A stretch of 64,000 nt of DNA, taken from the IMG/VR virus record IMGVR_UViG_3300009702_000500, positions 28,333-92,332 of that record. One strand, 5' to 3'. Positions 24,600 through 59,826 of the stretch are shown here, in pieces. How positions within the stretch are numbered: position 1 is the first letter of the stretch; the number at the start of each line of letters is the position of its first letter. The notes under the pieces were generated by a model that worked only from the letters and a program-made list of their open reading frames with translations, had not been told where the DNA came from and ran no database searches. Source of the DNA: a virus. The position numbers and the translations under genes are program-made.

Positions 24600-25742
24600 A
24601 TGAGATTTAAGATTCCTGTGGATGAATTACAGGGCATTATCAACATTTTAGGTATCACTGCAAAGGTTAACACATTAGAGGTAGCTGGACGTATTCTAAT
24701 TGAGGCAACCAAAGATTCAGTTCTTTTCTTGTCCAACAATCTTTCTACTGGTATATCTGTGATCACTGATAAGGCTGAAGTTGAGGAGGAAGGCAAAGCT
24801 TCCATAGTATTTGGTAAGATTAAGTCTTTTGTTTCTCCTTTTACTTTATGGGATCCAGATAAAAAAGAAGGGGCAAAGTATTTTAATTTCAAAGGGGATG
24901 ACCGGCATCTTACCATTAGCGTAAGAAATAAGTTTGCTAATGGTAAGGTATCTAATGGCAGAGTAAGATTAGACAGCTTCAATTCTTCCAGTATAATAAA
25001 ACCAGCCTATTTTTCAAAACCCACGTTTACATTAAGTGCTAATGCATTTAAAGCAGCTATAGGTAAGATTATGTATGCTGTTGATGCTAATTGTATGGCT
25101 CCAGCATTAAGGGGCGTGTGTATTCGCTTCGATGATGACAAAATTAGGTTTGCAGGTACGGATGGTAAAGTATTGTCTGAATATGCCATAGATAATATAT
25201 GTGATCTAAAAGATGGTTCTTTTGTGATTAAGGTTGATTTTATGATGGGGTTGAGAAGATTTATTATACCAGATATGGAGTTAGATTTTGAATTAACTGA
25301 TAAAGAGATAAAGGTGAAATCTGGTAGCGTTATGTTTTGGGGCAGATTGTTGACAGGTATGAACTACCCTGAGTATACGCATATGTTTAAGGAGTATGAA
25401 CATGAAATAATAATAGATAAAGGGGTATTAATGAGCAATTTGGTGCCTCTTATGGATGTATTAGACCCAAGTGATTCAAATAGAGTTGTATTCAAAATAG
25501 AAGATAAAAAAATAAGTTTATATAATAACGTAGGTAGTTTTATTTGTGATTGTGAGTTTTCTTTTTCAAAAGAAATTATAGCTGCTTTAGATGGTACCGC
25601 CATGTTTAAAACAATCGATGCTATTAAAGATGAAAATATATCCATTAAATTCTCTGATAATACATTAAAGAGCTTTATCTTTGATTCAGCTACATATCAT
25701 GATCAAAAAGCTATAATCGCACCATTAAAAACAAGGTCTTAA
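24600..25742 (+). CDS. dnaN: DNA polymerase III beta sliding clamp
   Basis: 380 aa; AAGGAG RBS; ALRGV..GTDG..L and RLL.G.NYPEY motifs of bacterial beta clamps. Confidence 0.88.
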   Translation: MRFKIPVDELQGIINILGITAKVNTLEVAGRILIEATKDSVLFLSNNLSTGISVITDKAEVEEEGKASIVFGKIKSFVSPFTLWDPDKKEGAKYFNFKGDDRHLTISVRNKFANGKVSNGRVRLDSFNSSSIIKPAYFSKPTFTLSANAFKAAIGKIMYAVDANCMAPALRGVCIRFDDDKIRFAGTDGKVLSEYAIDNICDLKDGSFVIKVDFMMGLRRFIIPDMELDFELTDKEIKVKSGSVMFWGRLLTGMNYPEYTHMFKEYEHEIIIDKGVLMSNLVPLMDVLDPSDSNRVVFKIEDKKISLYNNVGSFICDCEFSFSKEIIAALDGTAMFKTIDAIKDENISIKFSDNTLKSFIFDSATYHDQKAIIAPLKTRS

Positions 25743-27900: not shown

Positions 27901-28359
27901 ATGGATCAGACTATTTTTGTATACGATAAGATTAAGCCAAGTGTAGAGTTAATAGAAGAGGTGTTATCATATGATTTTAGGAAGTTAGATCAAGCATCTG
28001 GAGAAGACATAAGTAAATATTGTGCCGCATTGGCCCAATATCTTGTTTATATGCAGTACCAAAGAAACAAAGTAAAAATAGAAATGATTAAAACTAAACA
28101 GTACATTGATAGAGTTGTGTTTCAAATAATGGATGATAGTACATTAAAGAAATTTAAAACTAAAACGGCTGCTAAAGAAGCAATTATAACTGGTAATGAA
28201 GAACTATCAAAATCTCGTGATAAACTTGATGCTTTAGACACAGAACTTATTATGAGTAAAGGTATGGATAAGGGTATACTTGAATTGATTAATGCGCTTA
28301 AACGTGAACTGACTCGTCGTAGTGAAGAAATGTCGTCGGTTAGGTCAGGGAGAAGATAA
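27901..28359 (+). CDS. Helical protein, possibly a UvsY-like recombination mediator
   Basis: 152-aa coiled-coil-like protein between recA and dnaB; the UvsY call rests on size and context only. Confidence 0.45.
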   Translation: MDQTIFVYDKIKPSVELIEEVLSYDFRKLDQASGEDISKYCAALAQYLVYMQYQRNKVKIEMIKTKQYIDRVVFQIMDDSTLKKFKTKTAAKEAIITGNEELSKSRDKLDALDTELIMSKGMDKGILELINALKRELTRRSEEMSSVRSGRR

Positions 28360-28360
28360 T

Positions 28361-29764
28361 ATGGTAGTTGATTTCTGTAGAGCCACAGATGAGAGATTAC
28401 TTTTAAAGTTTTGTATCTCGGACCAAGACATGTACTATAGTGTAGCATCTAAACTTGTGGAAGATGATTTTCTTAATAAAAGTCATAGAACTCTTTATGT
28501 ACTAATTGGAAGTCTTTATGGTTCAGGATATAACAAATTAGACAGTACCATTATAATAAATGAAGCCAAGAATATGGGAGTTATAGACAGCCTTGGCGGA
28601 CCAGAATATCTATCAGGTGTTGTAAATGCCGATGTTAGTACATCTAATTTTGATAAGATATTACACAATGTATTAGAAGCAAGTACAAAGTCCAAATTAT
28701 ACGAAGCGATTGATAGACATAGAGGCACTATTATAGATAGTGTAAAAGGAAGAACTTCTCTTTCTAGTGCGGATCTTATTGGAAATTTAGAAAACTTTAT
28801 AATGGATTTATCTACAAGTAGCCGTGCTATAAAAGAACCATTAGATGTAGCTGAAGGTTTGTCTGAATGGATTGATAATCTTAGAGATAATAAAGTAGAA
28901 ATGTCCGGTATATCCACAGGGTATCCTATACTTGATAAACAAATAGATGGTATGATTCCTGGTACTCTGATGTTTATAGCCGCCCGTAAGAAAATGGGTA
29001 AGAGCGCTTTTCTCACAAATGTTGCTGCTTATGTTGCATTTAAATTAAAAATACCAACTTTATATGTAGACACAGAGATGTCATTTTTACAATTTAGATC
29101 AAGGCTAGTTGCCGGTATGGCGGGTGTTAAGGAACGTACCATTATTCACGGTGGATATAGTGATAATGAGTACAATAATATAGTGCGTAGATGCCTCAGA
29201 CTGGCCACGGAAGGCAACTTATACCATGAATATATGCCAGGGTATACAGTAGATAAGTTAGTAGCCTTATATAAGAAATTTAAGCTAAAACATGATATTG
29301 GATTTGCTGTATTTGATTATTTAAAGGAACCTGCTTTAAGTGCTACATCAGATAAGCAAAGAAAAGAATATCAAATATTGGGGGATGTGGCTACTCGTTT
29401 AAAGGATCTTTCAGGTGAATTAGATATTCCCTTCTTAAGTGCTGTACAGTTAAATAGATCAGATGATATAGCAGATAGTGATAAAATAGCAAGATACGCT
29501 GATATAATAGCACATTGGGCTAAAAAGGAATTAGAAGAGTTTGAGGCTGGTGGGCATCAAGGAGGAACACATAAACTAATGATTAAAGATACTCGCAGAG
29601 GAGGTAGTACCGGCGAAGCAGGGATAAGTTATTATTTTTTTAAAGAGCACTTACGAATAAAAGAAGTAGACGCAGAACACCAGTTAGTTAATTATATGAA
29701 GGAAGACGAGGTTGTAAATGATGACAGTGCAGACACAACATTCTCTGACGAAGAGCTCCTTTAA
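28361..29764 (+). CDS. dnaB: Replicative DnaB helicase
   Basis: STGY..LD, Walker A AARKKMGKS, DTEM, FDYL, QLNR, ADII; ATG 28361 after GGGAG preferred over the ORF start at 28322. Confidence 0.93.
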   Translation: MVVDFCRATDERLLLKFCISDQDMYYSVASKLVEDDFLNKSHRTLYVLIGSLYGSGYNKLDSTIIINEAKNMGVIDSLGGPEYLSGVVNADVSTSNFDKILHNVLEASTKSKLYEAIDRHRGTIIDSVKGRTSLSSADLIGNLENFIMDLSTSSRAIKEPLDVAEGLSEWIDNLRDNKVEMSGISTGYPILDKQIDGMIPGTLMFIAARKKMGKSAFLTNVAAYVAFKLKIPTLYVDTEMSFLQFRSRLVAGMAGVKERTIIHGGYSDNEYNNIVRRCLRLATEGNLYHEYMPGYTVDKLVALYKKFKLKHDIGFAVFDYLKEPALSATSDKQRKEYQILGDVATRLKDLSGELDIPFLSAVQLNRSDDIADSDKIARYADIIAHWAKKELEEFEAGGHQGGTHKLMIKDTRRGGSTGEAGISYYFFKEHLRIKEVDAEHQLVNYMKEDEVVNDDSADTTFSDEELL

Positions 29765-30794
29765 TAAATCAAATGATGATAAATGGTTGGAGTTTAAACA
29801 ACATATACAAGTATTAAAAAATGCTGTAGATGGTAGACTTCTTCTGGAAACACTCGGGTTTAATATTACAAAAGAAACTTCAAAAGAGTTGCGAGCAGCA
29901 TGTATAATTCATGGTGGTGATAATACAACAGCTTTCAGATTTAATAAAGAAAGGCACACGTGGGTTTGTTTTTCTCACAAATGTCATGAGATATTTGGTA
30001 ATGACGTTATATCACTGATCCGGGCTTGTGAAGACACAGATTTCAGAGGCGCTGTTAATTATCTTCGTGAATTGACAGGCGATATAGATACTAACCCGAG
30101 GAAATTTCTTGAGTTACAAAGGCAGCAAGAGAGGCGCGCATTTATTAGGGAACATTGTACTAAACATAGTGTTCCGCCATATGTGTCAGAGAAACATTTG
30201 CAAAAACATTTACATCTAAGGTCTAATGGATTTATAATAGACGGATTTAAACCAGAAACCTTAGATTATTTTGAAATTGGCGGCGGGTATGTAGATGAAG
30301 AAGGGGATATTAGAGATATCATACCCATAAGAGACCTAGACGGAACCTTATTAGCCTATAGTCAGAGAGATATTCGCCGTAATATAGATATACCAGACGA
30401 TGATAAATACAAAATAACCCCAGGTCTTTTAAAAGATAGAGTACTATATAATTTGAATAATGCTAAGGAGTATCTTCCTAAGAATAAACTTATTATAGTA
30501 GAAGGATTTAAGAGCGTGTGGTGGTTGTATGAAATGGGTATTTATAATGTAGTAGCAGTTATGGGGTCTTCTATTACGCCAGGACAACAAACGCTTTTAT
30601 ATCAGCACGCACACAATGGCATTGTGGTGCTGTTTGATAATGATGTGCCTGGAATAGAAGGTACTCAAAAAGCTTATGAACAGATGTTTAATAAAATAAG
30701 TATTATTCCTATTATTATGTATGGTCCAGAAGGTACTGACCCTGCAGATATAGATAAAGATATTTTATATAAATTCTTGAAAGACTTTGTTTAG
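29718..30794 (+). CDS. dnaG: DNA primase (zinc finger + TOPRIM)
   Basis: CIIH...CFSHKC zinc motif; LYNL; IIVEGF; LFDND.PG; DPAD. Confidence 0.9.
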   Translation: MMTVQTQHSLTKSSFNKSNDDKWLEFKQHIQVLKNAVDGRLLLETLGFNITKETSKELRAACIIHGGDNTTAFRFNKERHTWVCFSHKCHEIFGNDVISLIRACEDTDFRGAVNYLRELTGDIDTNPRKFLELQRQQERRAFIREHCTKHSVPPYVSEKHLQKHLHLRSNGFIIDGFKPETLDYFEIGGGYVDEEGDIRDIIPIRDLDGTLLAYSQRDIRRNIDIPDDDKYKITPGLLKDRVLYNLNNAKEYLPKNKLIIVEGFKSVWWLYEMGIYNVVAVMGSSITPGQQTLLYQHAHNGIVVLFDNDVPGIEGTQKAYEQMFNKISIIPIIMYGPEGTDPADIDKDILYKFLKDFV

Positions 30795-36148: not shown

Positions 36149-36199
36149 TTAGAATTATTATGCTTGACAAAATAAAATGTATAAAGAGGATTGTGATAA

Positions 36200-39145: not shown

Positions 39146-39169
39146 AACTATTGGTTCACAGGAGGAAAT

Positions 39170-43582: not shown

Positions 43583-43598
43583 GAGAAAATAAACTACT

Positions 43599-44219
43599 AT
43601 GGATTATAACAAAGTAGAGATAAAAGGACATCAAAGAGCCGGTAATCATTACTTAGCGTATTTAATTAATAATAATTTTTTTAATTATGATAATTATTAT
43701 AGTTTATTTAATAATGGAAATCATAAATTTGGATATGAACATACTTCTTTCAATTCTGATACATTATACATTTATATTTATAGAAATCTTGAAGATACCG
43801 CCAAATCTTTTTTAAAGATTAGAGGCAGGTTTTGTATCGGTACCAGTAAATTGGACGATTTACTGTCAGACAAACCTATGAGGCTATATGCTTCCAAAAA
43901 GGAAGCCGTTGGTATAGTGTTAGATAGGGATGCTATTGAAGCATTTAAAAGGGCTGGCGATAGTGTGCATCGTAGAAGTAATTTTACATTTACGTTTGGA
44001 GATTTAACATTTAGGGAATGGCATTCGAAGCATATATCTTCTTGGACGAATATAAAGAGAGATAATTTAATATTCATCAGATATGAAGATTTAATTCAAG
44101 ATTTTCATAACACTATGTTATATATATCTAGAAAGTTAGGATCAGATAGAACAAATTTTATTAATATGGATAAGAGGTTGGGGGTGCTACACAAAGGTGC
44201 AGATGTATGGACTGGTTAA
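43599..44219 (+). CDS. Sulfotransferase-domain protein
   Basis: G.QRAGNH.L (PSB-like), YIYRN..D...S, W..H...W, IRYEDL. Confidence 0.75.
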   Translation: MDYNKVEIKGHQRAGNHYLAYLINNNFFNYDNYYSLFNNGNHKFGYEHTSFNSDTLYIYIYRNLEDTAKSFLKIRGRFCIGTSKLDDLLSDKPMRLYASKKEAVGIVLDRDAIEAFKRAGDSVHRRSNFTFTFGDLTFREWHSKHISSWTNIKRDNLIFIRYEDLIQDFHNTMLYISRKLGSDRTNFINMDKRLGVLHKGADVWTG

Positions 44220-44848
44220 AATCTGAAATTATAGGGGCTGATAAAACATTAGTGGCTTTTGGAGGAATTGCAAATCAATTAATGATGCCAGTGTTTGAAT
44301 TTTTTAATATATTGAAATCATACAAGTTTAATAAAATATTTATAAGAGATTTAACACAATCTTGGTACTATAAGATAGGCCACGAAAAGATAGCAAAAGA
44401 GTTAATCAATATAATCCCACATAATACTACTAAAATATTTATTGATACTTCATCTGGTGGTTTTGCTTCAATTTTAATTGGTAACATGGTACAAGCAGAT
44501 GTTGTGTTGGCATTTTCTCCTCAAACTTTTTTAGATGTTGATTTTCGTGAAAAATATAATGACAATAGATGGCGTAGTGAAATAAGAAATGTACACTCAG
44601 TTACAACAAATAAAGAGAGTTTAAGATTGTTTGATATGATTTACGATAATGATATTACTAAATATTACATTTACTATTGTAAAAATTTCAAAATAGATGC
44701 TATACACGCAAAAATGATAGCTGATAAAAAGAATTTTACAATGATGCCTCAAAATTGTAATACTCATGTGGTTGTAAAATGGCTGAAACAACATAACTTA
44801 CTTTTAAATATTTTGACAGGAGATAATTTATGGAACAATATGAAGTAA
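44207..44848 (+). CDS. Alpha/beta-hydrolase-like protein (possible glycan acyl-modifying enzyme)
   Basis: T-S-S-G-G elbow-like motif, AFSPQT, D..HA and a C-terminal His. Confidence 0.5.
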   Translation: MDWLKSEIIGADKTLVAFGGIANQLMMPVFEFFNILKSYKFNKIFIRDLTQSWYYKIGHEKIAKELINIIPHNTTKIFIDTSSGGFASILIGNMVQADVVLAFSPQTFLDVDFREKYNDNRWRSEIRNVHSVTTNKESLRLFDMIYDNDITKYYIYYCKNFKIDAIHAKMIADKKNFTMMPQNCNTHVVVKWLKQHNLLLNILTGDNLWNNMK

Positions 44849-45567
44849 TATGTATAGGAACAGGAGAAATAGGTAAACCTTTGTATGAGTTGTTTAATGG
44901 AGTATATAAAACGCTGCCGATAGATCCAGTTAGGTTCTCGGAGAATACGAGTATACAGGCCAAATGTGATTATTTACATATTTGTATACCAGGAGCACTG
45001 AATAATTTTAGCGATGTAGTTTCTGACTATATAGAAAAATATAAACCACATACAGTGTGTATTCATTCTACTGTACCGCCAGGAACTACAAGAGGCATAG
45101 GCTTATTTGTTGATGCGATAGTGATTCATACACCGGTTCATGGTAAACATAGAGGAAATTCTATGAAAAAGGACATGCTAAGATACCCAAAATATTTGGG
45201 AGTTCCAGAAGGTCTTCCAGATCATGATATTAAAATAATTGTGGAACATTTTAGTAGGGTAGGTTTTTATGATATCCGACCGTTTAGAAAACCAGAAACT
45301 ACAGAATGGCTTAAAGTTTTGTCTACTACTTATTTTGGATTACAAATAGCTTGGGCGCAAGAAGTTGAACGTATATGTAATAAATTTAACCTTGATTACA
45401 ATGAGGTGTCCGATTTTTTTTCTATTCAAGAGGATGCTAAAACCCCAGCTTGGCCGGGAGTGATAAAGGGTCATTGTGTCATGCCTAATATAGATATAAT
45501 TCAAGAGGTTTATGATTCTATTGCTGCTGACTTTATAAGGAAATCAAATGATTTGAAGGAGAAATAA
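44830..45567 (+). CDS. Short UDP-glucose/GDP-mannose dehydrogenase family protein (WbpA-like C6 dehydrogenase)
   Basis: IGTGEIG, HSTVPPGTT, E..K, catalytic GHC; lacks the C-terminal domain. Confidence 0.8.
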   Translation: MEQYEVICIGTGEIGKPLYELFNGVYKTLPIDPVRFSENTSIQAKCDYLHICIPGALNNFSDVVSDYIEKYKPHTVCIHSTVPPGTTRGIGLFVDAIVIHTPVHGKHRGNSMKKDMLRYPKYLGVPEGLPDHDIKIIVEHFSRVGFYDIRPFRKPETTEWLKVLSTTYFGLQIAWAQEVERICNKFNLDYNEVSDFFSIQEDAKTPAWPGVIKGHCVMPNIDIIQEVYDSIAADFIRKSNDLKEK

Positions 45568-45571
45568 GTAA

Positions 45572-46738
45572 ATGATTATAAAATTTGTGGATCTAAATCA
45601 GCAATATAAAAGTGTATACTCTGAGATATTAAGTAATATTAAAAATTGTATTGCTAATGGTCAATTTGTTGGTGGTTATTGGGTGGACGGCTTTCAAAAA
45701 GATTTTGCCAAGTTTCATGATATAGAACATTGTGTGGGTGTTGGTTCTGGTACCGACGCATTGTGGTTGGCGTTGCTTGCCTTAGGTATTGGTCCTGGAG
45801 ACGAAGTCTTGGTGCCTGCTAATACTTTTATTGCTACTGCTCTTGCTGTTACTCATACTGGCGCCAAAGTGGTATTTGTAGAAGTAGACCCACATACTTA
45901 TAACATTGACTATGAATACTTAGACAAGTATGTAACTCCTAAAACAAAGGCAGTTATACCAGTTCATTTATATGGTAATCCAGTTGAAATGGATGGCCTT
46001 ATGTTATTTGCTAAAGAACATAATTTAAAAGTGGTGGAAGATTGTGCACAAGCTATTGGTGCTACTTTTAATGACCAGCCTGTAGGTACTTTTGGCGATG
46101 TGGGATGTTTTTCATTCTACCCCACAAAAAATCTTGGCGGGCTTGGACAGGGTGGAGCAATAATTACTAGAGACAAGAAAATAGCAGATAAGATAGAAAG
46201 TATGGCAAACGTAGGTAGAAAAAAAGGATCACACTATGAGTATGTAAACATTGGATTTAATTCAAGATTAGATTCTATAAACGCTTTATTTCTTGATATT
46301 TGTTTAAAAGAAGTAAGATCTTGGAATCTATATAGGCAATCAATAGCACGGCTATATAATACAGTAATAGATGGAATACCACAACTAAGTAGCCAAAAAG
46401 TTTTGGATGTTGCTTCTAATGTATATCATTTGTTTGAGTTAAAATGTCCTGACAAGACTACGCGCGACACCCTTAAATTGTTTTTAGACACGAAAGATAT
46501 TGCTACAGGATTACATTATCCAATACCTTGTCATAAACAGCCAATTTATTCCGATCATTCTGAAGAATCATTTCCAGTGGCTGAATATTTATCTGAGTCT
46601 TTACTATCGTTGCCTATGTACCCTACTCTTCCAGTAGAAGATGCTACGGTGGTTGTGTCAGCAATAAAAGAATTTTTTGAGGCTTCTAGTGTAAATAGAT
46701 CGGCATTAAGGAAGAAGTTATCATGGCGAATAAAATAG
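45572..46738 (+). CDS. DegT/DnrJ/EryC1/StrS PLP aminotransferase (WbpE/WlbC-like)
   Basis: SGTDAL, PVHLYG, EDCAQA, SFYPTKNLG, NSRLD, HYP.P.H, LSLPMYP. Confidence 0.93.
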   Translation: MIIKFVDLNQQYKSVYSEILSNIKNCIANGQFVGGYWVDGFQKDFAKFHDIEHCVGVGSGTDALWLALLALGIGPGDEVLVPANTFIATALAVTHTGAKVVFVEVDPHTYNIDYEYLDKYVTPKTKAVIPVHLYGNPVEMDGLMLFAKEHNLKVVEDCAQAIGATFNDQPVGTFGDVGCFSFYPTKNLGGLGQGGAIITRDKKIADKIESMANVGRKKGSHYEYVNIGFNSRLDSINALFLDICLKEVRSWNLYRQSIARLYNTVIDGIPQLSSQKVLDVASNVYHLFELKCPDKTTRDTLKLFLDTKDIATGLHYPIPCHKQPIYSDHSEESFPVAEYLSESLLSLPMYPTLPVEDATVVVSAIKEFFEASSVNRSALRKKLSWRIK

Positions 46739-47196
46739 AACTTATTGTAAGTGAAATAGATGGTATTATAACAGATCATCTAATACCTATAGATGAATTA
46801 GGAAATGTTCCTTTCAAAGAATTTTGTATGAAAGATTTTGAAGCCATAAATATGATAAAGAAGTTGGGATATAAATTCATCTTTGTCGCTAAAGACAATA
46901 GAATAAACTATCATTTATGTAGAAGAAAGAATATACCTTTCTTTTGGAGCGAGCAAGGAAAGAAAGAGGCTTTTCTCGCGGGGTTAAGAAGATATAATAT
47001 AAGCCTAGAAAATACTCTATATATAGGAAGCTCTTATTCTGATATAGAACTATTTAAAATGGCTCAGGTATCTATTTGTCCTGCTGATGCTGTAACTGAC
47101 ACTAAAGTTCAATCTGATGTAGTATTACAAACTAATGGTGGTTGTGGAGTACTGTGTGAAGTCTATGATGTGTTAAGAAGTAAAACATTAGGATAA
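46723..47196 (+). CDS. KdsC/YrbI-like HAD family protein with degenerate catalytic motifs
   Basis: EIDGIITD, F..KD, CPADA, GG.G...EV; motif I reads ExD. Confidence 0.75.
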   Translation: MANKIELIVSEIDGIITDHLIPIDELGNVPFKEFCMKDFEAINMIKKLGYKFIFVAKDNRINYHLCRRKNIPFFWSEQGKKEAFLAGLRRYNISLENTLYIGSSYSDIELFKMAQVSICPADAVTDTKVQSDVVLQTNGGCGVLCEVYDVLRSKTLG

Positions 47197-50543: not shown

Positions 50544-51626
50544 ATGGTTTATAGACATGAAAGTGCTACTGGTTCAAAAGATTTAAATGTTGTTTACAGG
50601 CCGTATAAATTAGAAGATTTGTTGGGTAATGATTCTAATAAAAGAATTATAGCAAAAGGATTAGACAATCAAACACTTCCACATACTATGTTGTTTACGG
50701 GACCAGCGGGGTGTGGAAAAACTACTACTGCCAGAATTATAGCAGCTGGACTTAATTGTGAAGCATCAGATCGCCCCACATCTACGCCTTGTTTAAAATG
50801 TGGTTCTTGTAGGTCTATTATAGATTATAACAGTGTAGATGTATTAGAGATTAATGTTGGAAAAACTGGCGGTAAAGGTGATGTAGAAAGAATAGTAGAT
50901 GACCTACCTACAGCACCATTTAAATCAAGAAGTAAAGTATTGATTTTTGATGAAGCACATAAACTTACGTCAGCAGCACAAGATCTATTATTGAAACCAA
51001 TAGAGGATGGGTTTTCTCATGTGTATTATATCTTTTGTACTAATCATCCTGAAAAATTAAGAACTAGAAAAAGTAAAGCAGAGGGAGAAGCATTTCTCGA
51101 TAGATGTTACGCTATGCATTTTGGTCCTATTTCCTCAGACGACGTGTATTCCCTTCTGGAAGGCGTTTGTGTCTGGGAAGGGGTATCGTATAGTGAAGAT
51201 GTTTTACGTTTCTTGGCGGACGAATCAGCGGGAATTCCGCGCAAAGGATTAAGATGGTTAAGACAGGTAATTGATGACGGTGTATGGAAACTACCAGAAG
51301 CAAAGAACATAGTGGGAGTTCTTGTTGACGAAGAGGATCCACAGATAATTGATTTATGTAGATCATTGGTCAGAGGTAAATTTAAAGACTCAGTGGGTAT
51401 GTATAATAAAATAAGAAATAATGGTGCCGAAAGTATAAGGATAGCAGTAGCAGGATACTTTGTAGCTTGTTTGAAGGGGGCAAAGACTGTATCAGAAGGG
51501 AACAAGTTTAGCGAGATATTAGACGTATTGCTTGTACCAGTGTACGAATCGGGTAAATTAGGGGATATGTCTATGATAAACTATATGTATAAGGTAACCA
51601 AAATAATTAATAAAAAAAAGAAGTAA
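50544..51626 (+). CDS. dnaX: DNA polymerase III gamma/tau-like clamp loader subunit
   Basis: YRP, GPAGCGKTT.AR, LNC...PC..C.SC, DEAH.L, LLK..E, DRC; gamma-sized. Confidence 0.92.
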   Translation: MVYRHESATGSKDLNVVYRPYKLEDLLGNDSNKRIIAKGLDNQTLPHTMLFTGPAGCGKTTTARIIAAGLNCEASDRPTSTPCLKCGSCRSIIDYNSVDVLEINVGKTGGKGDVERIVDDLPTAPFKSRSKVLIFDEAHKLTSAAQDLLLKPIEDGFSHVYYIFCTNHPEKLRTRKSKAEGEAFLDRCYAMHFGPISSDDVYSLLEGVCVWEGVSYSEDVLRFLADESAGIPRKGLRWLRQVIDDGVWKLPEAKNIVGVLVDEEDPQIIDLCRSLVRGKFKDSVGMYNKIRNNGAESIRIAVAGYFVACLKGAKTVSEGNKFSEILDVLLVPVYESGKLGDMSMINYMYKVTKIINKKKK

Positions 51627-51641
51627 GGGAAAAGGATTTAT

Positions 51642-52019
51642 ATGTCGTTAATTAAAACTAAGGGTGTTGCTTTACCAAAACCTAATTACGAATATATTAC
51701 TAAAGAAGAAGATGCTCGCAGAGCATTGAACGATATATACAGATATAATGAGTCCTCAGTTGATACAGAGTGTACTTCTTTAGACCCATTTATAGCAAAG
51801 ATGACTCTTTTACAAATAGGTACTGTAGATAAGGCATATGTGTTTGATGTAAGAGCTGATACGGATTATAGTGATGTATCTCTTAATTTATTTAAAGATT
51901 ATCTAACTGATAAGAGTAAAACAAAGTTGTTACAGAATGCTGTGTTTGATATGAAACTTATAAAGCATTTGGCGGGATTTTATATTGAAAATATATATGA
52001 CACAATGTTGTCAGAGTAA
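51642..52019 (+). CDS. polA: Family A DNA polymerase, N-terminal 3'-5' exonuclease part (ends at an in-frame TAA)
   Basis: ExoI VDTE, LLQIG, ExoII QNAVFD, YDTML; same frame as the downstream part. Confidence 0.85.
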   Translation: MSLIKTKGVALPKPNYEYITKEEDARRALNDIYRYNESSVDTECTSLDPFIAKMTLLQIGTVDKAYVFDVRADTDYSDVSLNLFKDYLTDKSKTKLLQNAVFDMKLIKHLAGFYIENIYDTMLSE

Positions 52020-52043
52020 TTATTTAACCTTGGTAAAGGATAT

Positions 52044-53549
52044 GTGGCTGCTGGTTTGGCTGCTTTAGTTTTTAGATATTTAGGGATAAATATGCCTAAA
52101 GAACCGGCTGGTACTTTTTCTGACTATGGCCAAAAGTTCAAACCGTATCAATTAGAATATGCTGCTAACGATGTAGTAGTACTTCCTATGATAAAAGAAC
52201 TTCAGATGATAAAAACTATATCTGAGGGTTTAGAAGATGCCGCTAGACTGGAGTTTGAGTTCACGAAACCTATGTGTGAGATGGAACTCAATGGCATTAC
52301 TATAGATGTTGATAAATGGCGTATAATTATGAGGGATATTGATAAAATACGGATGTCCCTACATGATGAAATAAGTGGCATGCTATCAGATTCGTCTGAT
52401 CAAATTTTTATGTTCGATGTTCCAGCAGTTAATATAGATAGTCCGGCCCAATTAAAGGCCGCTTTGTCAAAGATCGGTTTGTCTAATATAGACAATACTG
52501 ATGAAGCTACGCTTAATAAGTTTCAAGGTTTGCCGGTTATAGACGCATTACTTAAATATAGAAAAGCAAATAAGCTTATTTCCACTTATGGCGAAGCACT
52601 TCTTGAAAAGATCAATGATCTTACTGGTAGACTACATACTGATTTTAGACAGATGGTATCTACTGGTAGAATGAGTAGTGCCAACCCAAATCTTCAGAAT
52701 ATACCTAAAAAACAAATGTATCGATCATGTTTTATAGCAAAGCCGGGATACTCCTTAGTCACCGCAGATATGTCTGGTGCCGAACTTAGAATACTTGGTA
52801 ACTTATCACAAGATCCCGTTTTTATAGAATGTTATGCTCATGGTATTGATCTTCATACTAGAACGGCGTCAGAAGTTTTTGGCGTTGCTATGGAAAATGT
52901 TAAAAAGGATATGAGGAGTGGTGCCAAAGCCATTAATTTCGGTCTCTGTTATGGTCTTTCCAAATATGGATTGGCGCGCCGGTTGAAGATTCCAGAAAAT
53001 AAAGCAGATAAAATGATAAAATCCTATTTTAAAAAGTACACTGGAGTTAAAAGATTTTTAGATAAATCAGCTAAAGATGCAGTGATGAATAGATTTAGTA
53101 GATCTATTAGTGGAAGGAAACGTTATTATAGATTGCCAGAATATGGTGATCCAGATTTCGGAAGAGCTAAAGCTAGCGTAGAAAGGAAAGCTAAAAACGC
53201 ACCAATTCAGGGCTCTAATGCAGACACTATTAAACAAGCTATGATTTATTTAGTTGACAGATTAGAAAAGAGTGGTTACGATGCTAAATTGATATTAACC
53301 GTTCATGATGAAGTAGTAGTTGAAACAAAACATGAAGAGCGACATGAGGTTGGTGAAATTGTGGCTAAGTCTTTAGTAGATGGATTTGGACATTATTTTC
53401 ATTTAATACCGATGGAAACTGATGCTCTTATAGGACCATGCTGGTTAAAAGGTGAATGTGAGAAATGTAAATCTGATGAAATGATTTTCATTCCAGATAA
53501 GAAATATAAAACCAAATTAGTATGTAAATCATGTGGAGGAGATATTTAA
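52044..53549 (+). CDS. polA: Family A DNA polymerase, ExoIII + polymerase domain + C-terminal Zn ribbon
   Basis: YAAND, TGRMSSANPNLQNIP, motif A DMSGAELR, motif B KAINFGLCYG, NAPIQG, motif C VHDE. Confidence 0.95.
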   Translation: MAAGLAALVFRYLGINMPKEPAGTFSDYGQKFKPYQLEYAANDVVVLPMIKELQMIKTISEGLEDAARLEFEFTKPMCEMELNGITIDVDKWRIIMRDIDKIRMSLHDEISGMLSDSSDQIFMFDVPAVNIDSPAQLKAALSKIGLSNIDNTDEATLNKFQGLPVIDALLKYRKANKLISTYGEALLEKINDLTGRLHTDFRQMVSTGRMSSANPNLQNIPKKQMYRSCFIAKPGYSLVTADMSGAELRILGNLSQDPVFIECYAHGIDLHTRTASEVFGVAMENVKKDMRSGAKAINFGLCYGLSKYGLARRLKIPENKADKMIKSYFKKYTGVKRFLDKSAKDAVMNRFSRSISGRKRYYRLPEYGDPDFGRAKASVERKAKNAPIQGSNADTIKQAMIYLVDRLEKSGYDAKLILTVHDEVVVETKHEERHEVGEIVAKSLVDGFGHYFHLIPMETDALIGPCWLKGECEKCKSDEMIFIPDKKYKTKLVCKSCGGDI

Positions 53550-54009: not shown

Positions 54010-57000
54010 TTGATGAAGAAAGATATACTGTCAGAGAATGCGTTGAAGATAGCAAAAAGTAGATATTTTATAGATGACGAAGAGACTTGGGAAGAGCTTG
54101 CATTAAGAGTAGCTAGGGTAGCGGCATCTGTAGAAAATGGTGCAAGATCTGTTTATACTAATAATTTTGCTGAAATGATAACAGATATGGATTTTCTTCC
54201 CGGCGGTAGAATTTTAAGAAATGTTGGACGACCAAGAGGATCCCTTTTCAATTGTTTATCAAAAGATACTGAGGTTATTTCTGAGACTCGGGGTCTTGTT
54301 AAAATTACAGATCTTGATGTCAATGAACGTATATTGAATGGTGTCGGAAAATTTGATACTGTCAAAACTGTTATTAATAATGGGTTTAAAGAGAAATTAT
54401 TAGAAATTATAGTTGAAGGTTTTGGTAAAAATAATAAAATACTATGTACAGAAGATCATAGATTTTTAGTTTTTTCTTTTAAAGAAGGGTTCGTATGGAA
54501 AAAAGCAATTGAAATAAGTGACAGGGATTTTATGGTGACACCAAAAGTAGCTTTTGATGATAATGTAGATTCGGTCAACGTTGCTGATGTTGTTGATATA
54601 AAAGAATTGTATTCTATTTTTTCAATAAAAAGCATTAACAGCGTAGAATATAATGATTATGTTTATGACATATCTATGACAGACGAAACTAATCCTCATT
54701 TTACTATTGTTGGCGCGGTCAGTCACAATTGTTATGTACTTCCCTGCGGAGATTCTATCGAGGAGATAGGACAATACATAAAGGATTCACTTATCCTATG
54801 GAGTGAAGGTGGTGGAGTTGGTGTTAATATTTCACATCTTCGTCCTAGAGGTGCTATTATTAGAGGAAAGGGCGGAAATTCTTCTGGCCCTGTTAGTTTT
54901 TTAGAAGCAGCAAATGCAGTATCAAAGACCATCGAGTCTGGCGGGTCAAGAAGGGCGGCGGCCTTAGCGGGGATGCATGTGTCGCACCCTGACATATTGG
55001 AGTTCATTGATGCCAAACTGGTACATGGAAAACTTGACCATTTTAATCTATCTGTAGCTATAGATGATAAGTTTCTGGAAGCAGTTGAGACCGATGGAGA
55101 ATGGCAGTTTAAATTTGCACAGCAAAATTATGGAAAAATACAGGCCAAAGTTATTTGGGATAAGATTATAGAAAATATGGTATCTTGTGCGGAGCCTGGG
55201 CTATTACACTGGGGCAATCTTACAAGTAACAACTCGTATTATTTTGATCCTATACTTTGTTTTACAGGGGATACTCTTATTTCTACTACTGATGGCCTTA
55301 TCCCCATTAAAGATCTGGTAGATAAAAAAGTTAATACTGTTTCTGATTTAAGGGTTATTGGTTCACAGGGTACTTTTATAGAAGATGGTGTGGGTTTTAA
55401 ATCTGGAGTTAAAGAGGTATTCGAAGTAAAACTTGAAAACAATCAAAGTATAAAACTGACAGCAAATCACAAGGTGTGGACAAAGGATGGGTGGAAACAG
55501 GTAAAAGATTTGAAAATAAAAGAGGATTATATGTACGTCCAAAATTCTATATCCCAACATTTCGTTGGAAATATAGATAACGAAGATGAGTTTGATAAGG
55601 GGTATCTTCTCGGTTTATTGGTAGGGGATGGTTGGATTACTTGCCGTAAAGACGATGAAAAAATACAGTATGGTTTTTGTTTTAATGAGTCAGAAACCGA
55701 TATGATGAATTTTGTTGAAGAAAAAACAAATAAGATAGCTGATGGTAGAAAAATTAATTGGAGAAGAAGTTCGGGTGGTTCCAAGTCCTTTGAATTAGCC
55801 AGTGCTTCTACAGATGTAAACAAATATTTTAAACAATGGGGATATACTTCTAGAATAAATAAAAATGGTTATGTAAGTGGAACACGAAAAAGTAGTAAAT
55901 TTATTTCAGATGAGGTTTTATCAGAGACTCCTAGTTTTAAACGTGGATTTATTTCTGGGTTATATACGTCGGACGGTAGTATACAACGTGTTGGTAAGGG
56001 AAGCACAGGAAAAAACGGCAAAAAAATTACTTTTACCACATCAAGAAAACATATAGCAGAAAGACTACAGATAATGCTTAATGAGTTTGGTATTCCTTCG
56101 TCCGTTGGGTCAAGGATATCAAAATTAAATGGAAAACTGTTTACCGGTTATACAGTTAATATTAGTAGAACGTTAGCATGTCAGGCGTTCAAAGAACTAA
56201 TTGGTTGTAGACACTCAGAAAAAAATAAAAATTTGGAAGGTTATAGATTTGGTAGTAGATGGAATGAAAAGTACTATGGAATGTTTAAAGTCAAATCTAT
56301 AGAATCTCTTGGTGAGCAAGAAGTTTATGATGTGGAGACTAGTACTACACACTCATTGATTGCTAATGGGATTATTGTTCATAACTCCACCAACCCCTGC
56401 GTAGTGGGCGACACTTTAATAGCTGTTGCGGATGGGCGAAATTATGTACCAATCAAACAGCTTGCTGATGAGGGCAAGGACGTACCAGTGTATTCACTTA
56501 ATGAAAGCTCTGGTAAGGTTGAAGTTAAGATGATGCGTAATCCTAGAAAAACTGGTTTTAATAAGAAAATATTTAAGATTACATTGGATGACGGTTCATA
56601 TTTTAAATGTAATGAACACCATAAAATTTATATGAAAGACGCATCTATCAAAACCGCATCTGAACTTGTGCCAGGGGATAGGTTGAACCATATGGTTAAG
56701 TTCAATGCTTCTTTTGAAGAAGTTTTTAATCATTCTAATTCGAAATCACAAGACTATTGTTGGATAAATAATGGTTATGGTAAAACCGTTGCTGAACATA
56801 GGTTAATTGCTGAATTTTCTAAAGGTACCCCTTTAGAAAGTGACGATGTAGTTCATCATGTTGACTATAATGGATTAAATAACTCCTTTGATAATCTTAA
56901 AGTTATGAAGAGAAAAGACCACGGTCGTCTTCATTCTAAAAACATGTTGGGAAAGAACAACCCCATGAATCGTTTTCCAGAGAAAAATTGGCTAATAAAG

Positions 57001-59826
57001 CAAGATTGGTCTGGCGAAAAAAATGGTAGATATAAAGGGATATCTCCAGCATCTATTTTTAATATCGCTGTGAAGTTGAGCAAGAAATTAGGCAGACGCG
57101 TTACTAGAGAAGAGTGGAATAATTATTGTAAGGAGAATAATTTGCCTTATAGTAAATATTCTATAAGTGGTTACAAAAGTTTTAGTAAGTTTCTTAAGTC
57201 TGCCGCTAAAAAAGCATCGGTTTTTGTTACGGAAAATTCTGTAATGACGCGAGAATATAAAAGATACCTAGATTTACTTGAAGAGACAGATTTAGATATT
57301 TATTTTGATAATGGTATAATGGTTAATAAAACCTGTGAGCACTGTGGTAATAAGTTTTCGGTAAGATGGCAAAGAAGAGAGCAGTGTTTTTGTTCTGTTA
57401 CCTGTAGTAATGTAGGTAGAAACCCAAATGACATTTCTAGAGAGGGGTTTTTAAGTAGGCAAGAAGTGACTAGATTTAAACAATTAAAAATATTTAATGA
57501 GTTACGTGATAAATTAAATAGAGATCCTTGGAAGATCGAGTGGGAAAATAAATGTAAAGAATTATCGGTGCCTTTTAGATTAATGGGACAAGCCTATAAT
57601 ATTAAAAAAAATCCACATGTTTTTAGAACCTATGGTGAACTAAAAGAAGCAGCCAATGGTAAGAATTATAAAGTAGTTTCTGTAGAGGTATGTGGGTATG
57701 AAGATGTCTATAATGGTACAGTTGATAACAACCATAATTTTTATATTATGACCAATGAAACTACTACTAAAAGTGGTAAAGTTAAGTATAATCACATACT
57801 TAACAGACAATGCGGAGAAGCTCCATTATCTAGTTACGGGATTTGCGATTTAGGGTCTTTAGTTCTTCCTAATTTTATTACTGGTAATATTAATACCAAT
57901 TGGAGAAAATTAGAAAAGACTATCAAATTGTCAGTGAGACTATTAGATAACATCATTGATGTTAACAAATATGTCTTGAAGAATGTTGAAATCAAAGCAC
58001 ATAATGCTCGTAGAATAGGTCTTGGGGTAATGGGACTTGCAGAATATTTATTCGCAAAGAAACTTCGTTACGGATCCAAGAAAGCTATCTATGAAATTGA
58101 AAGGCTTATGAGATTTATTAGAGACACGGCATACGAGGCGTCAGTAGAATTGTCTATAGAGAAAGGGACCTTTCCTAAGTTTGATGCATCACAATATGGT
58201 AAAGCGCATTTCATTAGAAGTTTGCCGGCAGCGCTGCGGATGCAGATTAAGAAACATGGTGTGAGGAATGTTACTCTTATGGCCATGGCACCTACTGGAT
58301 GTCAAGACAAAGACACCATGATTGTTACTGATAAAGGAATTTTTACATTAGAAGAAATTGGTGATATTAATGGTGAAAAATGGCAAAATATAGATTTAAA
58401 AGTATCACAAGAGAAGTTTCAAGAAGAAAGAAGTGCTACTAAATTCTATATTAATGGTAAAGCAAACACTAAAAAAATATATTTAAAAAGTGGAAACACG
58501 CTTGAATCAACATATAATCATCAATACAGAGTATTAGAAAATGGAAAATATATATGGAAAAGAGCAGACGAATTAAATATTGGTGATGATATAATTTCAG
58601 TATTAGAAACATATAATAAACAAACAGATCCTACATTAGAAATGCCCATTACTACTCATTGGAATCAAAATAATATTAATACTATATCTTCAATGAATGA
58701 AAAGTTAGCAGAGTTTTTGGGTATTTATTTTGGAGATGGGAGTAATCATCATAAAGGTATTAGAATACATTGTAACTCTAAAAATGAAGAAGATTATTTG
58801 TATGTTGCTAAATTAGGGAAAGAGGTTTTTGGAATAACCCCCACTTTTTATGACAATGGAAGAAATTGTATGGCAGTTTGCTTTAATTCTAACTTGATTT
58901 TAAAGTTTCTTGAATTAAATGGTTTATTAAAACAAAAATCAAATGAGATTTCAATCCCTAAGATTTTAAGGAGTTCTAGTAAAAACAGTCTGAAAGCCTT
59001 TATTAAAGGGTATATATTTGCTGATGGTAGTAAAACTGGTAATACTTTTTTTATAGATACTGCAAGTAAAAAAATGTCTAAGGAATTATTAATAATTATA
59101 AGAGCATTAGGAAATGATGTTAGGATACAAAAACATATTTCAGGATTGGGTTCTGAAATATTTAGAGTATTTATTAAAAAAGGTGTTTATAAATTTAGAC
59201 CTTCAAGTGAGCAAGATAAAAAAAGACAATTAGAATCTTTAAATTTGAATAATTGTGTTGTGGACGAAATAATTAAAATTGAAAATTCTGAAAATTATAC
59301 TTATGATATAGAGGTACCAGATACCGTAACATATATAGCTAATAGTGTGGTTTCTCATAATACAATTTCTTTATTACCTGAAGTTTCTTCAGGAATAGAG
59401 CCATTATTCAGAAAGGCTTATAGACGTTCTGATAGGGTAAGTGATCGTATTTATGTACATCCATTATATGAAAAGTTCTTAAAAGAAACAGATGGATCTA
59501 TTGAAGAATGGTTTGTTGATACAGATGATTTAACTCCATCCGATCATTTTGAGACACAGGTAGCTGTCCAAAAATTTACGGATGGTGCAGTGTCTAAAAC
59601 GATTAATATGCCAAGTGATACTACTACAGAAGATCTTAGCACTCTAACTATGGAATATATTTATGATTTAAAGGGAGTTACAGTGTATGTTGATGGTAGT
59701 AGGGAGGGCCAAATTTTAAATAAGATATCCGAAGAGGATGTGAGAGCTTATTTAAAATCTGGCAATATGGACAATAGTGCAGATGAAGAAACTACCAAGT
59801 GTGCTACTGGTAGTTGTGAAATATAA
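54010..59826 (+). CDS. nrdJ: Ribonucleotide reductase, probably class II (B12-dependent), with four inteins
   Basis: After removing inteins (~578 aa): PGGR, FNCYV, GGGVG, SGPVSF, TNPCGE, C.LGS, RRIGLG, APTGTIS, SSGIEP, SKTIN, KGVT, terminal C...SC. No ATP cone and no nrdB in the window. Confidence 0.9.
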   Translation: MMKKDILSENALKIAKSRYFIDDEETWEELALRVARVAASVENGARSVYTNNFAEMITDMDFLPGGRILRNVGRPRGSLFNCLSKDTEVISETRGLVKITDLDVNERILNGVGKFDTVKTVINNGFKEKLLEIIVEGFGKNNKILCTEDHRFLVFSFKEGFVWKKAIEISDRDFMVTPKVAFDDNVDSVNVADVVDIKELYSIFSIKSINSVEYNDYVYDISMTDETNPHFTIVGAVSHNCYVLPCGDSIEEIGQYIKDSLILWSEGGGVGVNISHLRPRGAIIRGKGGNSSGPVSFLEAANAVSKTIESGGSRRAAALAGMHVSHPDILEFIDAKLVHGKLDHFNLSVAIDDKFLEAVETDGEWQFKFAQQNYGKIQAKVIWDKIIENMVSCAEPGLLHWGNLTSNNSYYFDPILCFTGDTLISTTDGLIPIKDLVDKKVNTVSDLRVIGSQGTFIEDGVGFKSGVKEVFEVKLENNQSIKLTANHKVWTKDGWKQVKDLKIKEDYMYVQNSISQHFVGNIDNEDEFDKGYLLGLLVGDGWITCRKDDEKIQYGFCFNESETDMMNFVEEKTNKIADGRKINWRRSSGGSKSFELASASTDVNKYFKQWGYTSRINKNGYVSGTRKSSKFISDEVLSETPSFKRGFISGLYTSDGSIQRVGKGSTGKNGKKITFTTSRKHIAERLQIMLNEFGIPSSVGSRISKLNGKLFTGYTVNISRTLACQAFKELIGCRHSEKNKNLEGYRFGSRWNEKYYGMFKVKSIESLGEQEVYDVETSTTHSLIANGIIVHNSTNPCVVGDTLIAVADGRNYVPIKQLADEGKDVPVYSLNESSGKVEVKMMRNPRKTGFNKKIFKITLDDGSYFKCNEHHKIYMKDASIKTASELVPGDRLNHMVKFNASFEEVFNHSNSKSQDYCWINNGYGKTVAEHRLIAEFSKGTPLESDDVVHHVDYNGLNNSFDNLKVMKRKDHGRLHSKNMLGKNNPMNRFPEKNWLIKQDWSGEKNGRYKGISPASIFNIAVKLSKKLGRRVTREEWNNYCKENNLPYSKYSISGYKSFSKFLKSAAKKASVFVTENSVMTREYKRYLDLLEETDLDIYFDNGIMVNKTCEHCGNKFSVRWQRREQCFCSVTCSNVGRNPNDISREGFLSRQEVTRFKQLKIFNELRDKLNRDPWKIEWENKCKELSVPFRLMGQAYNIKKNPHVFRTYGELKEAANGKNYKVVSVEVCGYEDVYNGTVDNNHNFYIMTNETTTKSGKVKYNHILNRQCGEAPLSSYGICDLGSLVLPNFITGNINTNWRKLEKTIKLSVRLLDNIIDVNKYVLKNVEIKAHNARRIGLGVMGLAEYLFAKKLRYGSKKAIYEIERLMRFIRDTAYEASVELSIEKGTFPKFDASQYGKAHFIRSLPAALRMQIKKHGVRNVTLMAMAPTGCQDKDTMIVTDKGIFTLEEIGDINGEKWQNIDLKVSQEKFQEERSATKFYINGKANTKKIYLKSGNTLESTYNHQYRVLENGKYIWKRADELNIGDDIISVLETYNKQTDPTLEMPITTHWNQNNINTISSMNEKLAEFLGIYFGDGSNHHKGIRIHCNSKNEEDYLYVAKLGKEVFGITPTFYDNGRNCMAVCFNSNLILKFLELNGLLKQKSNEISIPKILRSSSKNSLKAFIKGYIFADGSKTGNTFFIDTASKKMSKELLIIIRALGNDVRIQKHISGLGSEIFRVFIKKGVYKFRPSSEQDKKRQLESLNLNNCVVDEIIKIENSENYTYDIEVPDTVTYIANSVVSHNTISLLPEVSSGIEPLFRKAYRRSDRVSDRIYVHPLYEKFLKETDGSIEEWFVDTDDLTPSDHFETQVAVQKFTDGAVSKTINMPSDTTTEDLSTLTMEYIYDLKGVTVYVDGSREGQILNKISEEDVRAYLKSGNMDNSADEETTKCATGSCEI
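54253..54729 (+). mobile_element. RNR intein 1: 159-aa mini-intein
   Basis: CLSKDT...TEDHRF...VYDI...SHN followed by Cys; no endonuclease domain. Confidence 0.9.
55258..56385 (+). mobile_element. RNR intein 2 with LAGLIDADG endonuclease (376 aa)
   Basis: CFTGDT...TANH...LGLLVGDG...GLYTSDG...VYD...VHN followed by Ser. Confidence 0.93.
56398..57810 (+). mobile_element. RNR intein 3 with HNH endonuclease and C-terminal Gln (471 aa)
   Basis: CVVGDT...HRLIAE..VHHVD....NN...NL; VYNGTV..NHNF; ends NRQ followed by CGE. Confidence 0.9.
58300..59361 (+). mobile_element. RNR intein 4 with LAGLIDADG endonuclease (354 aa)
   Basis: APTG|CQDKDT...TYNH...FLGIYFGDG...GYIFADG...TYDIEV...SHN|TIS. Confidence 0.93.

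What the first reader, a model, noticed from the sequence alone, without database searches (positions are those of the whole stretch)
52401..52415. Clamp-binding-like motif QIFMF in the PolA thumb: possible hybrid replisome of family A polymerase + beta clamp + DnaX
Seen: the window encodes DnaN, DnaX, DnaB and DnaG, but its only polymerase is family A, directly downstream of dnaX. It carries DQIFMFD just before the conserved N.DS..QL thumb motif. Established: beta-clamp ligands use QxxL(F)-type motifs, and T7 polymerase binds its processivity factor thioredoxin through an insertion in this part of the thumb. Inference: this PolA is a clamp-dependent replicase.
Basis: inference. Interest (0 to 1): 0.7.

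Follow-up and report, generated by a model that had tools for sequence, protein, structure and literature searches.

The report
Clamp-docking peptide on phage polymerase thumb
A giant uncultured phage's Pol I-type DNA polymerase has a strongly conserved sliding-clamp docking peptide on a flexible thumb loop, and the phage encodes its own clamp and clamp loader but no other polymerase, so it probably copies its genome with this pairing, though binding is untested.

Summary
QIFMF is at 52401-52415, in a family A polymerase gene directly downstream of a DnaX-like clamp loader. A beta-clamp homologue, DnaB and DnaG lie upstream.

QIFMF alone is not beyond chance. It is the local form of a family-wide Qxx[L/M]F (usually QTTLF). 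Phe is invariant and Gln about 97% conserved, next to a highly variable helix.

The AlphaFold2 model puts the motif in the lowest-confidence internal loop, between thumb helices H and H1. T7 polymerase carries its thioredoxin-binding domain at that site. Bacterial Pol I has a loop about 11 residues shorter and no motif.

Relatives on contigs long enough to judge keep the clamp and one loader gene. No DnaE or PolB was found, including in 87-89% complete genomes.

New here: the loop motif extends across a much larger phage PolA clade, including named crAss-like phages. It occurs in complete 85-94 kb genomes with no detectable clamp or loader. It is therefore not tied to a phage-encoded clamp, and those phages may use the host clamp.

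In this assembly the polA gene has an in-frame TAA. This scan has reported the same motif on other genomes at least eight times.

The parts
52401..52415 (+). QIFMF, the local form of the family-wide Qxx[L/M]F beta-clamp-binding-type motif (PolA residues 254-258, numbered with the TAA read as Gln)
   Evidence: Sequence. In alignment A1 Phe258 is invariant and Gln254, Leu/Met257 and Gly259 are at least 90% conserved. Of 115 homologues, 112 have Q and 3 have K at position 1; position 5 is always F.
52395..52442 (+). Flexible thumb loop between helices H and H1 (residues 252-267). It is about 11 residues longer than in bacterial Pol I.
   Evidence: AF2 model: no secondary structure at 252-267. The 251-260 block has mean pLDDT 54, the lowest apart from the N-terminal block (1-10, mean 53). 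Bacterial Pol I loops are shown.
52308..52394 (+). Thumb helix H (residues 223-251), highly variable in sequence
   Evidence: mean column entropy 2.06 bits, against 0.82 for the motif.
51642..53549 (+). Family A DNA polymerase with a 3'-5' exonuclease domain (635 codons). It is interrupted by an in-frame TAA at 52017-52019 and has a C-terminal four-Cys extension.
   Evidence: PF01612 and PF00476; NF011539 E 3e-123; Klenow/Bst/apicoplast Pol fold, TM about 0.8; catalytic and exonuclease residues invariant in A1.
52017..52019 (+). In-frame TAA between the ExoII and ExoIII motifs, at a codon that is Gln in homologues
50544..51626 (+). DnaX (gamma)-like clamp-loader ATPase of 360 aa. It has a Walker A motif, a Cys-rich module that looks like the DnaX zinc module, and an SRC-like DRC. 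There is no room for tau-type C-terminal domains (my reading from its length).
24600..25742 (+). Beta-type (three-domain) sliding clamp homologue of 380 aa
   Evidence: AF2 model pLDDT 93.2. Positions equivalent to the bacterial peptide pocket are among the most conserved.
28322..29764 (+). DnaB-type replicative helicase
29718..30794 (+). DnaG-type primase (zinc ribbon plus Toprim)

Best explanation
QIFMF is this phage's version of a conserved short linear motif, Qxx[L/M]F-G. The motif sits on a flexible loop inserted between thumb helices H and H1 of the phage's only DNA polymerase. The most likely function is docking into the hydrophobic pocket of a beta-type sliding clamp. In this giant phage that clamp is the phage's own DnaN homologue, loaded by the DnaX-like ATPase encoded next to polA. 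Docking would tether the polymerase to the duplex it has just made and turn a Pol I-type enzyme into a processive replicase.

Shown: the motif, its conservation, its position in the loop, the gene content, and the absence of other polymerases in near-complete relatives.
Inferred: that the motif binds a clamp, which clamp it binds, and that this raises processivity.
For: 1. The motif matches the bacterial clamp-binding consensus QxxLF, as cited in PMC12926913.
2. In 56 aligned homologues Phe258 is invariant and Gln254 has entropy 0.22 bits. The adjoining helix H averages 2.06 bits. Of 115 homologues, 112 have Q and all have F.
3. The motif lies in the least confident internal segment of a model with mean pLDDT 89.9. 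High conservation in a disordered loop is typical of a docking peptide.
4. The loop is at the site of the T7 thioredoxin-binding domain. It is about 11 residues shorter and has no motif in 89 of 100 bacterial Pol I sequences.
5. Clamp homologues were found in 15 of 18 and 3 of 5 related records. The misses are short fragments, plus one 141-kb contig whose polA lies within 10 kb of the contig end.
6. No DnaE, DnaE finger domain or PolB was found, including in 234- and 238-kb records that are 87-89% complete. Each has a single PolA and a single loader gene next to it.
7. Other PolA lineages carry textbook variants in the same loop: QLDLF, QLSLF, QLGLF and QMDLF. One has a dnaG-dnaB-x-polA-dnaN operon, and one complete 80-kb genome has its own clamp.
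8. By sequence alignment to solved clamps, residues equivalent to the bacterial pocket are among the most conserved in the phage clamp family: Gly172, Gly189, Leu192, Pro257 and Tyr259.
Against: Five complete or nearly complete 85-106 kb phage genomes have the loop motif in PolA but no detectable clamp (TIGR00663, PF00712, PF02768) or loader (PF13177). Named crAss-like phages also carry QGDIF or QGNLF in this loop. The motif therefore does not track phage-encoded clamps. It may serve a host clamp or another partner.

One 112-kb genome has a clamp but no QxxLF in the loop. Ma-LMM01 showed no such motif in the region that aligned, and the RSL1 alignment did not cover the loop.

Only one loader subunit is detectable. 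No delta-like clamp opener was found.

The pocket mapping is by sequence only, and those residues could be conserved for folding.

In this assembly polA has an in-frame TAA, so this copy as written would be split.
Confidence: 0.62

Rival explanations
1. The loop motif is a clamp-binding motif, but its main target is the host's beta clamp. The phage-encoded DnaN homologue would then have another role, for example in late transcription, repair or host takeover.
For: Complete genomes and crAss-like phages have the same loop motif without any detectable clamp or loader. Many variants are exact bacterial-type motifs. A phage use of the beta clamp for late transcription is on record for Mu (PMC12867686, listed).
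Against: In the giant-phage family the clamp is kept in every record long enough to judge, and the loader gene lies next to polA in the records checked. The phage clamp keeps pocket-equivalent residues. Carrying a loader only makes sense if the phage clamp is loaded onto DNA.
Confidence: 0.12
2. The conserved loop docks onto a different partner, such as the DnaB helicase, the primase, a single-strand-binding protein or an unknown processivity factor. T7 polymerase uses this region for thioredoxin and for helicase contacts.
For: The site is a known partner-binding site in T7 (mentions primase-helicase contact at this site). The motif also occurs in phages without clamps.
Against: The sequence matches the clamp consensus closely, and independent lineages have exact QLDLF and QLSLF forms. 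No alternative partner with a known Qxx[L/M]F ligand is encoded nearby.
Confidence: 0.13
3. The motif is structural. The Leu-Phe pair would pack against the polymerase itself, or close the thumb over DNA, with no protein partner.
For: Thumb tips of family A polymerases contact the product duplex. AF2 without DNA could leave such an element unplaced.
Against: The consensus is acidic and hydrophobic (E-D-Q-T-T-L-F-G), which suits DNA contact poorly. The lowest internal pLDDT argues against stable packing. Bacterial Pol I works without the insertion.
Confidence: 0.1

Closest known systems
T7 gp5 DNA polymerase with its thioredoxin-binding domain
   Same: Both are family A replicases with an insertion at the same thumb site, before helix H1, that recruits a processivity factor next to the exiting duplex.
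   Different: T7 has a long folded insertion, which PMC10201439 classes as 50 residues or more, and it binds host thioredoxin. Here the insertion is about 11 residues of flexible loop with a linear clamp-type motif, and the presumed partner is a ring clamp that needs a loader.
Bacterial beta-clamp clients with QL[S/D]LF or QxxLF motifs (for example Pol II and Y-family polymerases)
   Same: Same pentapeptide consensus. As in Pol III alpha (from my own knowledge), the motif is internal rather than C-terminal. The Met at position 4 seen here also occurs in the Pol III alpha motif (own knowledge).
   Different: The carrier is a family A polymerase and the site is the thumb tip. Binding is not shown.
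Actinobacterial PolA2/APEX polymerases with QxxLF (PMC12926913, 2026)
   Same: A family A polymerase with a QxxLF motif in an unstructured loop, proposed to use the beta clamp. That proposal is supported by AlphaFold models.
   Different: The PolA2 motif is in the vestigial exonuclease domain of a low-fidelity repair enzyme that uses the host clamp. Here the motif is in the thumb of a proofreading-competent phage replicase that is encoded together with its own clamp.
PolA + polIII-beta + polIII-gamma replicases predicted for phages Ma-LMM01 and RSL1 (Kazlauskas and Venclovas 2011, PMC3201878)
   Same: Same gene content and the same hypothesis that a beta homologue is the processivity factor of a phage PolA. 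The same open question about clamp-loader composition applies.
   Different: No contact motif was named there. Ma-LMM01 showed no such loop motif in my alignment, and the RSL1 alignment did not cover the loop; both alignments were poor. The clade here has no cultured member in the phage collection searched.

Membership tests
Beta-clamp-binding motif (QL[S/D]LF / QxxLF short linear motif) | Pentapeptide consensus: Gln at position 1, Leu or Met at position 4, Phe at position 5 | tested here: met
   QIFMF in the window. Family consensus is QTTLF, with Q in 112 of 115 and F in 115 of 115.
Beta-clamp-binding motif (QL[S/D]LF / QxxLF short linear motif) | Lies in an exposed, flexible segment rather than in the folded core | tested here: met
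   Loop 252-267 has no secondary structure, and the 251-260 block has mean pLDDT 54 in a model with mean pLDDT 89.9. This is a prediction only.
Beta-clamp-binding motif (QL[S/D]LF / QxxLF short linear motif) | Conserved among orthologues more than its flanks | tested here: met
   Column entropies are 0.22, 0.43, 0 and 0.52 bits at Q, L, F and G, against 2.06 bits for helix H.
Beta-clamp-binding motif (QL[S/D]LF / QxxLF short linear motif) | Physical docking into the cleft between clamp domains II and III | not testable with these tools
There is no biochemistry.
Beta-clamp-binding motif (QL[S/D]LF / QxxLF short linear motif) | Co-occurrence with an available clamp | tested here: inconclusive
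   A phage clamp is present in relatives where the contig allows a judgement. The motif also occurs in complete genomes with no detectable phage clamp; a host clamp would be available there.
Bacterial-type sliding clamp (DnaN) | Full-length homology to three-domain beta clamps | tested here: met
   TIGR00663 E 1e-22 over residues 12-377. The family profile matches PDB beta clamps, E 1e-23 for the best hit; another chain (8dt6, E 1.6e-23) aligns over profile positions 1-360. The AF2 model has pLDDT 93.2 and a threefold repeat of secondary structure. The score is below the curated equivalog cut-off, so this is a divergent homologue.
Bacterial-type sliding clamp (DnaN) | Conserved peptide-binding pocket residues | tested here: inconclusive
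   Sequence mapping through a solved gamma-proteobacterial-type clamp gives conserved Leu170, Gly172, Gly189, Leu192, Pro257, Tyr259 and Asn/Asp331. No three-dimensional check was made.
DnaX-type clamp loader | AAA+ gamma/tau N-terminal module with a Walker A motif, a zinc module and an SRC-type arginine | tested here: met
   TIGR02397 E 5e-52 and PF13177 E 6e-24. The motifs were read.
DnaX-type clamp loader | Complete pentamer with delta and delta-prime type subunits | tested here: not met
   Only one loader-like gene is present per genome. PF06144 gives only weak hits inside that same gene. PHROGs gave nothing for the neighbouring unknown ORFs. Divergent subunits cannot be excluded.
Family A replicative polymerase | Intact polymerase motifs A, B and C and exonuclease motifs I-III | tested here: met
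   The catalytic Asp and Glu, the motif B Arg, Lys and Tyr, and the exonuclease Asp, Glu and Tyr residues are invariant in A1. In this assembly, however, the frame is broken by TAA at codon 126.

The most novel reading that the evidence does not exclude
The thumb-loop Qxx[L/M]F peptide is an old and widespread trait of a very large clade of phage family A polymerases, including crAss-like phages. Mid-sized phages without clamp genes would use it to hijack the host's beta clamp. Giant phages later added their own clamp and a minimal loader. If so, clamp tethering at the T7 thioredoxin site would be a common, unrecognised route to processivity for phage Pol I-type replicases.
Probability: 0.4. 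Interest if true: 0.75.

Novelty: new variant of a known kind. Interest (0 to 1): 0.62.

Why it matters
Pol I-type polymerases have low processivity on their own. How they replicate phage genomes of 100-300 kb has been explained only for T7 (thioredoxin) and guessed for a few others.

A mapped, conserved clamp-docking peptide at the same thumb site would give a second general solution. It would explain why giant phages with only a PolA carry a bacterial-type clamp and loader.

It would also give simple tests: peptide binding, point mutants and processivity assays. If crAss-like and other abundant phages use the same peptide on host clamps, the clamp becomes a point of dependence on the host, and possibly of defence. 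Such clamp-tethered PolAs could also be useful enzymes.

Tried and rejected
I used the search for related loci instead.
- My first regular-expression anchor for the thumb gave many 'no anchor' rows, so it could not show absence of the motif in outgroups. I replaced it with a thumb profile HMM.
- Ma-LMM01 and RSL1: the Ma-LMM01 alignment over the thumb was poor and showed no motif. The RSL1 alignment did not cover the loop. Neither is informative.
- The second QIFMF in the window (protein 12538-14619, residue 97) lies inside a DUF2341 domain of a virion-type protein. I read it as coincidence.
- TAA recoding as an explanation of the in-frame stop is rejected. TAA ends 34 of 49 long ORFs, and there are no tRNA genes on the 92-kb contig.
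- A DNA alignment of the stop region with a relative was out of register and gave nothing.
- tblastn of the clamp against GenBank phages gave no hit, and PolA hits there were all below 40% identity. No cultured relative was found.
- The literature searches found no paper that places a clamp-binding motif in a phage PolA thumb. The library is incomplete.

Full report
**What is there.** The window is the last 64 kb of a 92,332-base IMG/VR virus contig that CheckV rates as about 34% complete. The source is therefore a giant phage of roughly 250-300 kb. All genes lie on the + strand. Bases 52401-52415 encode Q-I-F-M-F inside a family A polymerase. That polymerase has an exonuclease domain (PF01612) and a polymerase domain (PF00476), together spanning 51642-53549. 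It starts 16 bases after a DnaX-like clamp-loader ATPase at 50544-51626 (PF13177, TIGR02397 E 5e-52). Upstream lie four more replication genes:
- a beta-clamp homologue at 24600-25742;
- RecA;
- DnaB at 28322-29764;
- DnaG at 29718-30794.
dUTPase, an intein-rich ribonucleotide reductase and RNase HII follow.

**Is the motif more than chance?** On its own it is not. Q..[LM]F is expected 0.06 times in this protein and twice in the window's proteome, and it is seen twice. The second copy sits inside a DUF2341 domain of a virion-type protein. Comparison with relatives decides the matter.
- The 120 best homologues are 59-90% identical and mostly uninterrupted at 634-645 residues. Some carry inteins.
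- Of these, 115 have the anchor N-x-D-S-x-x-Q-L. All 115 carry [Q/K]xx[L/M/I]F a few residues before it, usually QTTLF. Q occurs in 112, K in 3, and F in all.
- In a 56-sequence alignment Phe258 is invariant. Gln254, Leu/Met257 and Gly259 are at least 90% conserved.
- Column entropies at those positions are 0.22, 0.43, 0 and 0.52 bits. The preceding helix averages 2.06 bits.

**Where the motif sits.** The AlphaFold2 model has mean pLDDT 89.9 and a Klenow/Bst-like fold with TM about 0.8.
- It shows helix 223-251, an unstructured loop 252-267, helix 268-277, a short helix 288-292 and helix 298-316. This is the thumb hairpin, with helices H, H1, H2 and I.
- The 251-260 block has mean pLDDT 54, the lowest apart from the N-terminal block (1-10, mean 53).
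- PMC10201439 states that the T7 thioredoxin-binding domain is an insertion at the thumb tip that precedes helix H1. That is the same place.
- Bacterial Pol I sequences have a loop about 11 residues shorter. In 89 of 100 there was no motif (one search gives the Taq alignment).
A strictly conserved acidic-hydrophobic peptide in a disordered inserted loop is what a docking motif looks like. It does not look like a DNA-contact element.

**Gene content in relatives.**
- A homologue of the window's clamp is present in 15 of 18 related virus records, and in 3 of 5 further ones. The misses are fragments of 17-46 kb, plus one 141-kb contig whose polA lies within 10 kb of the contig end.
- None of the 18 has DnaE (PF07733).
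- The five longest include records of 234 and 238 kb that are 89% and 87% complete. They have no PolB, no DnaE finger domain, a single PolA and a single loader gene next to it.
- No delta-type subunit was detected.
- By sequence alignment to solved clamps, the positions that line the peptide pocket in bacterial clamps are among the most conserved in the phage clamp family: Gly172, Gly189, Leu192, Pro257 (invariant) and Tyr259. I could not check this in three dimensions.

**How far the motif extends.**
- *Representatives.* I searched 1.84 billion representative proteins and kept the best 150, which are 33-59% identical. I aligned them with a thumb profile. Of these, 83 have Q..[LMI][FWL] in this loop, 29 have the Leu-Phe without Gln, and 37 have neither. 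The frequency falls with distance.
- *IMG/VR loci of this wider clade.* They show textbook clamp motifs in the loop: QLDLF, QLGLF, QMDLF, QLALF and QISLPGL.
- *Lineages with their own clamp.* A separate lineage has a dnaG-dnaB-x-polA-dnaN operon with xMDLF in the loop, and one member has QLSLF. One complete 80-kb genome with QMDLF has its own clamp.
- *Genomes with the motif but no clamp.* Five genomes of 85-106 kb carry the motif. Three are rated 100% complete and two of those have terminal repeats. None has a detectable clamp by TIGR00663, PF00712 or PF02768, and none has a loader by PF13177. The positive controls were found.
- *Named crAss-like phages.* IAS virus and cr111_1 carry QGDIF and QGNLF in the same loop.
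- *Genomes without the motif.* Among 22 PolA-bearing genomes that are at least 85% complete and lack the loop motif, one has a clamp.
The motif is therefore enriched where phage clamps occur but is not restricted to them. The simplest reading is that it is a general clamp tether, used on the host clamp by mid-sized phages and on a phage-encoded clamp by giant ones. This reading is an inference.

**What is known.**
- Kazlauskas and Venclovas (2011, PMC3201878) noted PolA plus polIII-beta plus polIII-gamma in Ma-LMM01 and RSL1. They suggested the beta homologue acts as processivity factor and left the loader composition open.
- A 2026 survey (PMC12926913) found QxxLF in the exonuclease-domain loop of actinobacterial PolA2. 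It called this the first bacterial family A polymerase with an identified clamp-binding motif.
- I found no paper that places such a motif in a phage PolA thumb. The library is incomplete.
- This scan has reported the same thumb-tip motif on at least eight other genomes. I read those notes after my own analysis, and they agree with it.

**Limits.**
- Binding is not shown.
- The contig is a fragment.
- Clamp detection in divergent phages may miss remote homologues.
- The association counts are not phylogenetically independent.
- In this assembly polA has an in-frame TAA at 52017-52019, between ExoII and ExoIII, where homologues have Gln (one C-to-T change from CAA). TAA is the commonest true stop here, and no tRNA genes are on the contig. 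I therefore read it as a sequence variant or an error, not as recoding.

**Verdict.** The clamp-tether interpretation is the best explanation, at about 0.6. It is a new variant of known kinds of system, and it can be tested directly.

Noticed in passing
window 52017-52019: In-frame TAA in polA between the ExoII and ExoIII motifs, at a codon that is Gln in homologues (one C-to-T change from CAA). As assembled, the polymerase is split into pieces of 125 and 501 residues.
   Followed up: partly
window 53439-53546 (PolA residues about 600-635): Conserved C-terminal extension with four Cys (two invariant CxxC pairs) and two predicted beta hairpins, which looks like a zinc ribbon. Bacterial Pol I lacks it. 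It may be a contact point for the helicase or primase.
   Followed up: no
window 12826-12840 (protein 12538-14619, residues 97-101): A second exact QIFMF pentapeptide, inside a DUF2341 domain of a virion-type protein. Probably coincidence.
   Followed up: partly
window 54010-59826: Ribonucleotide reductase large subunit of 1938 residues. Pfam finds four intein-splicing stretches, with LAGLIDADG and HNH nuclease domains.
   Followed up: no
window 36200-38386: Glycosyltransferase interrupted by a LAGLIDADG intein, within a block of sugar-modifying and sulfotransferase genes at 34865-47196.
   Followed up: no
window 27342-27698: Small HNH/homing-endonuclease-like ORF between recA and dnaB (PHROG 559).
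   Followed up: no
L050:190-5717: A 60-kb phage record with a compact dnaG-dnaB-x-polA-dnaN operon. Its PolA thumb loop has xMDLF, and relatives have QLSLF and similar forms.
   Followed up: partly
L214:138-2171 and L215:138-2129 (IAS virus, crAssphage cr111_1): Named crAss-like phages carry QGDIF or QGNLF in the same PolA thumb loop. I did not search these two records for clamp genes. Uncultured 85-106 kb phages, some with similar PolAs, had none.
   Followed up: partly
L133 (112-kb record, 92% complete): This phage has a clamp homologue (TIGR00663 E 7e-26), but its PolA thumb loop has no QxxLF. It is an exception to the association.
   Followed up: no
record of L011, 124565-124975: In one 150-kb relative the clamp-loader open frame is 665 residues, against about 360 elsewhere. 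It may be a fusion.
   Followed up: no
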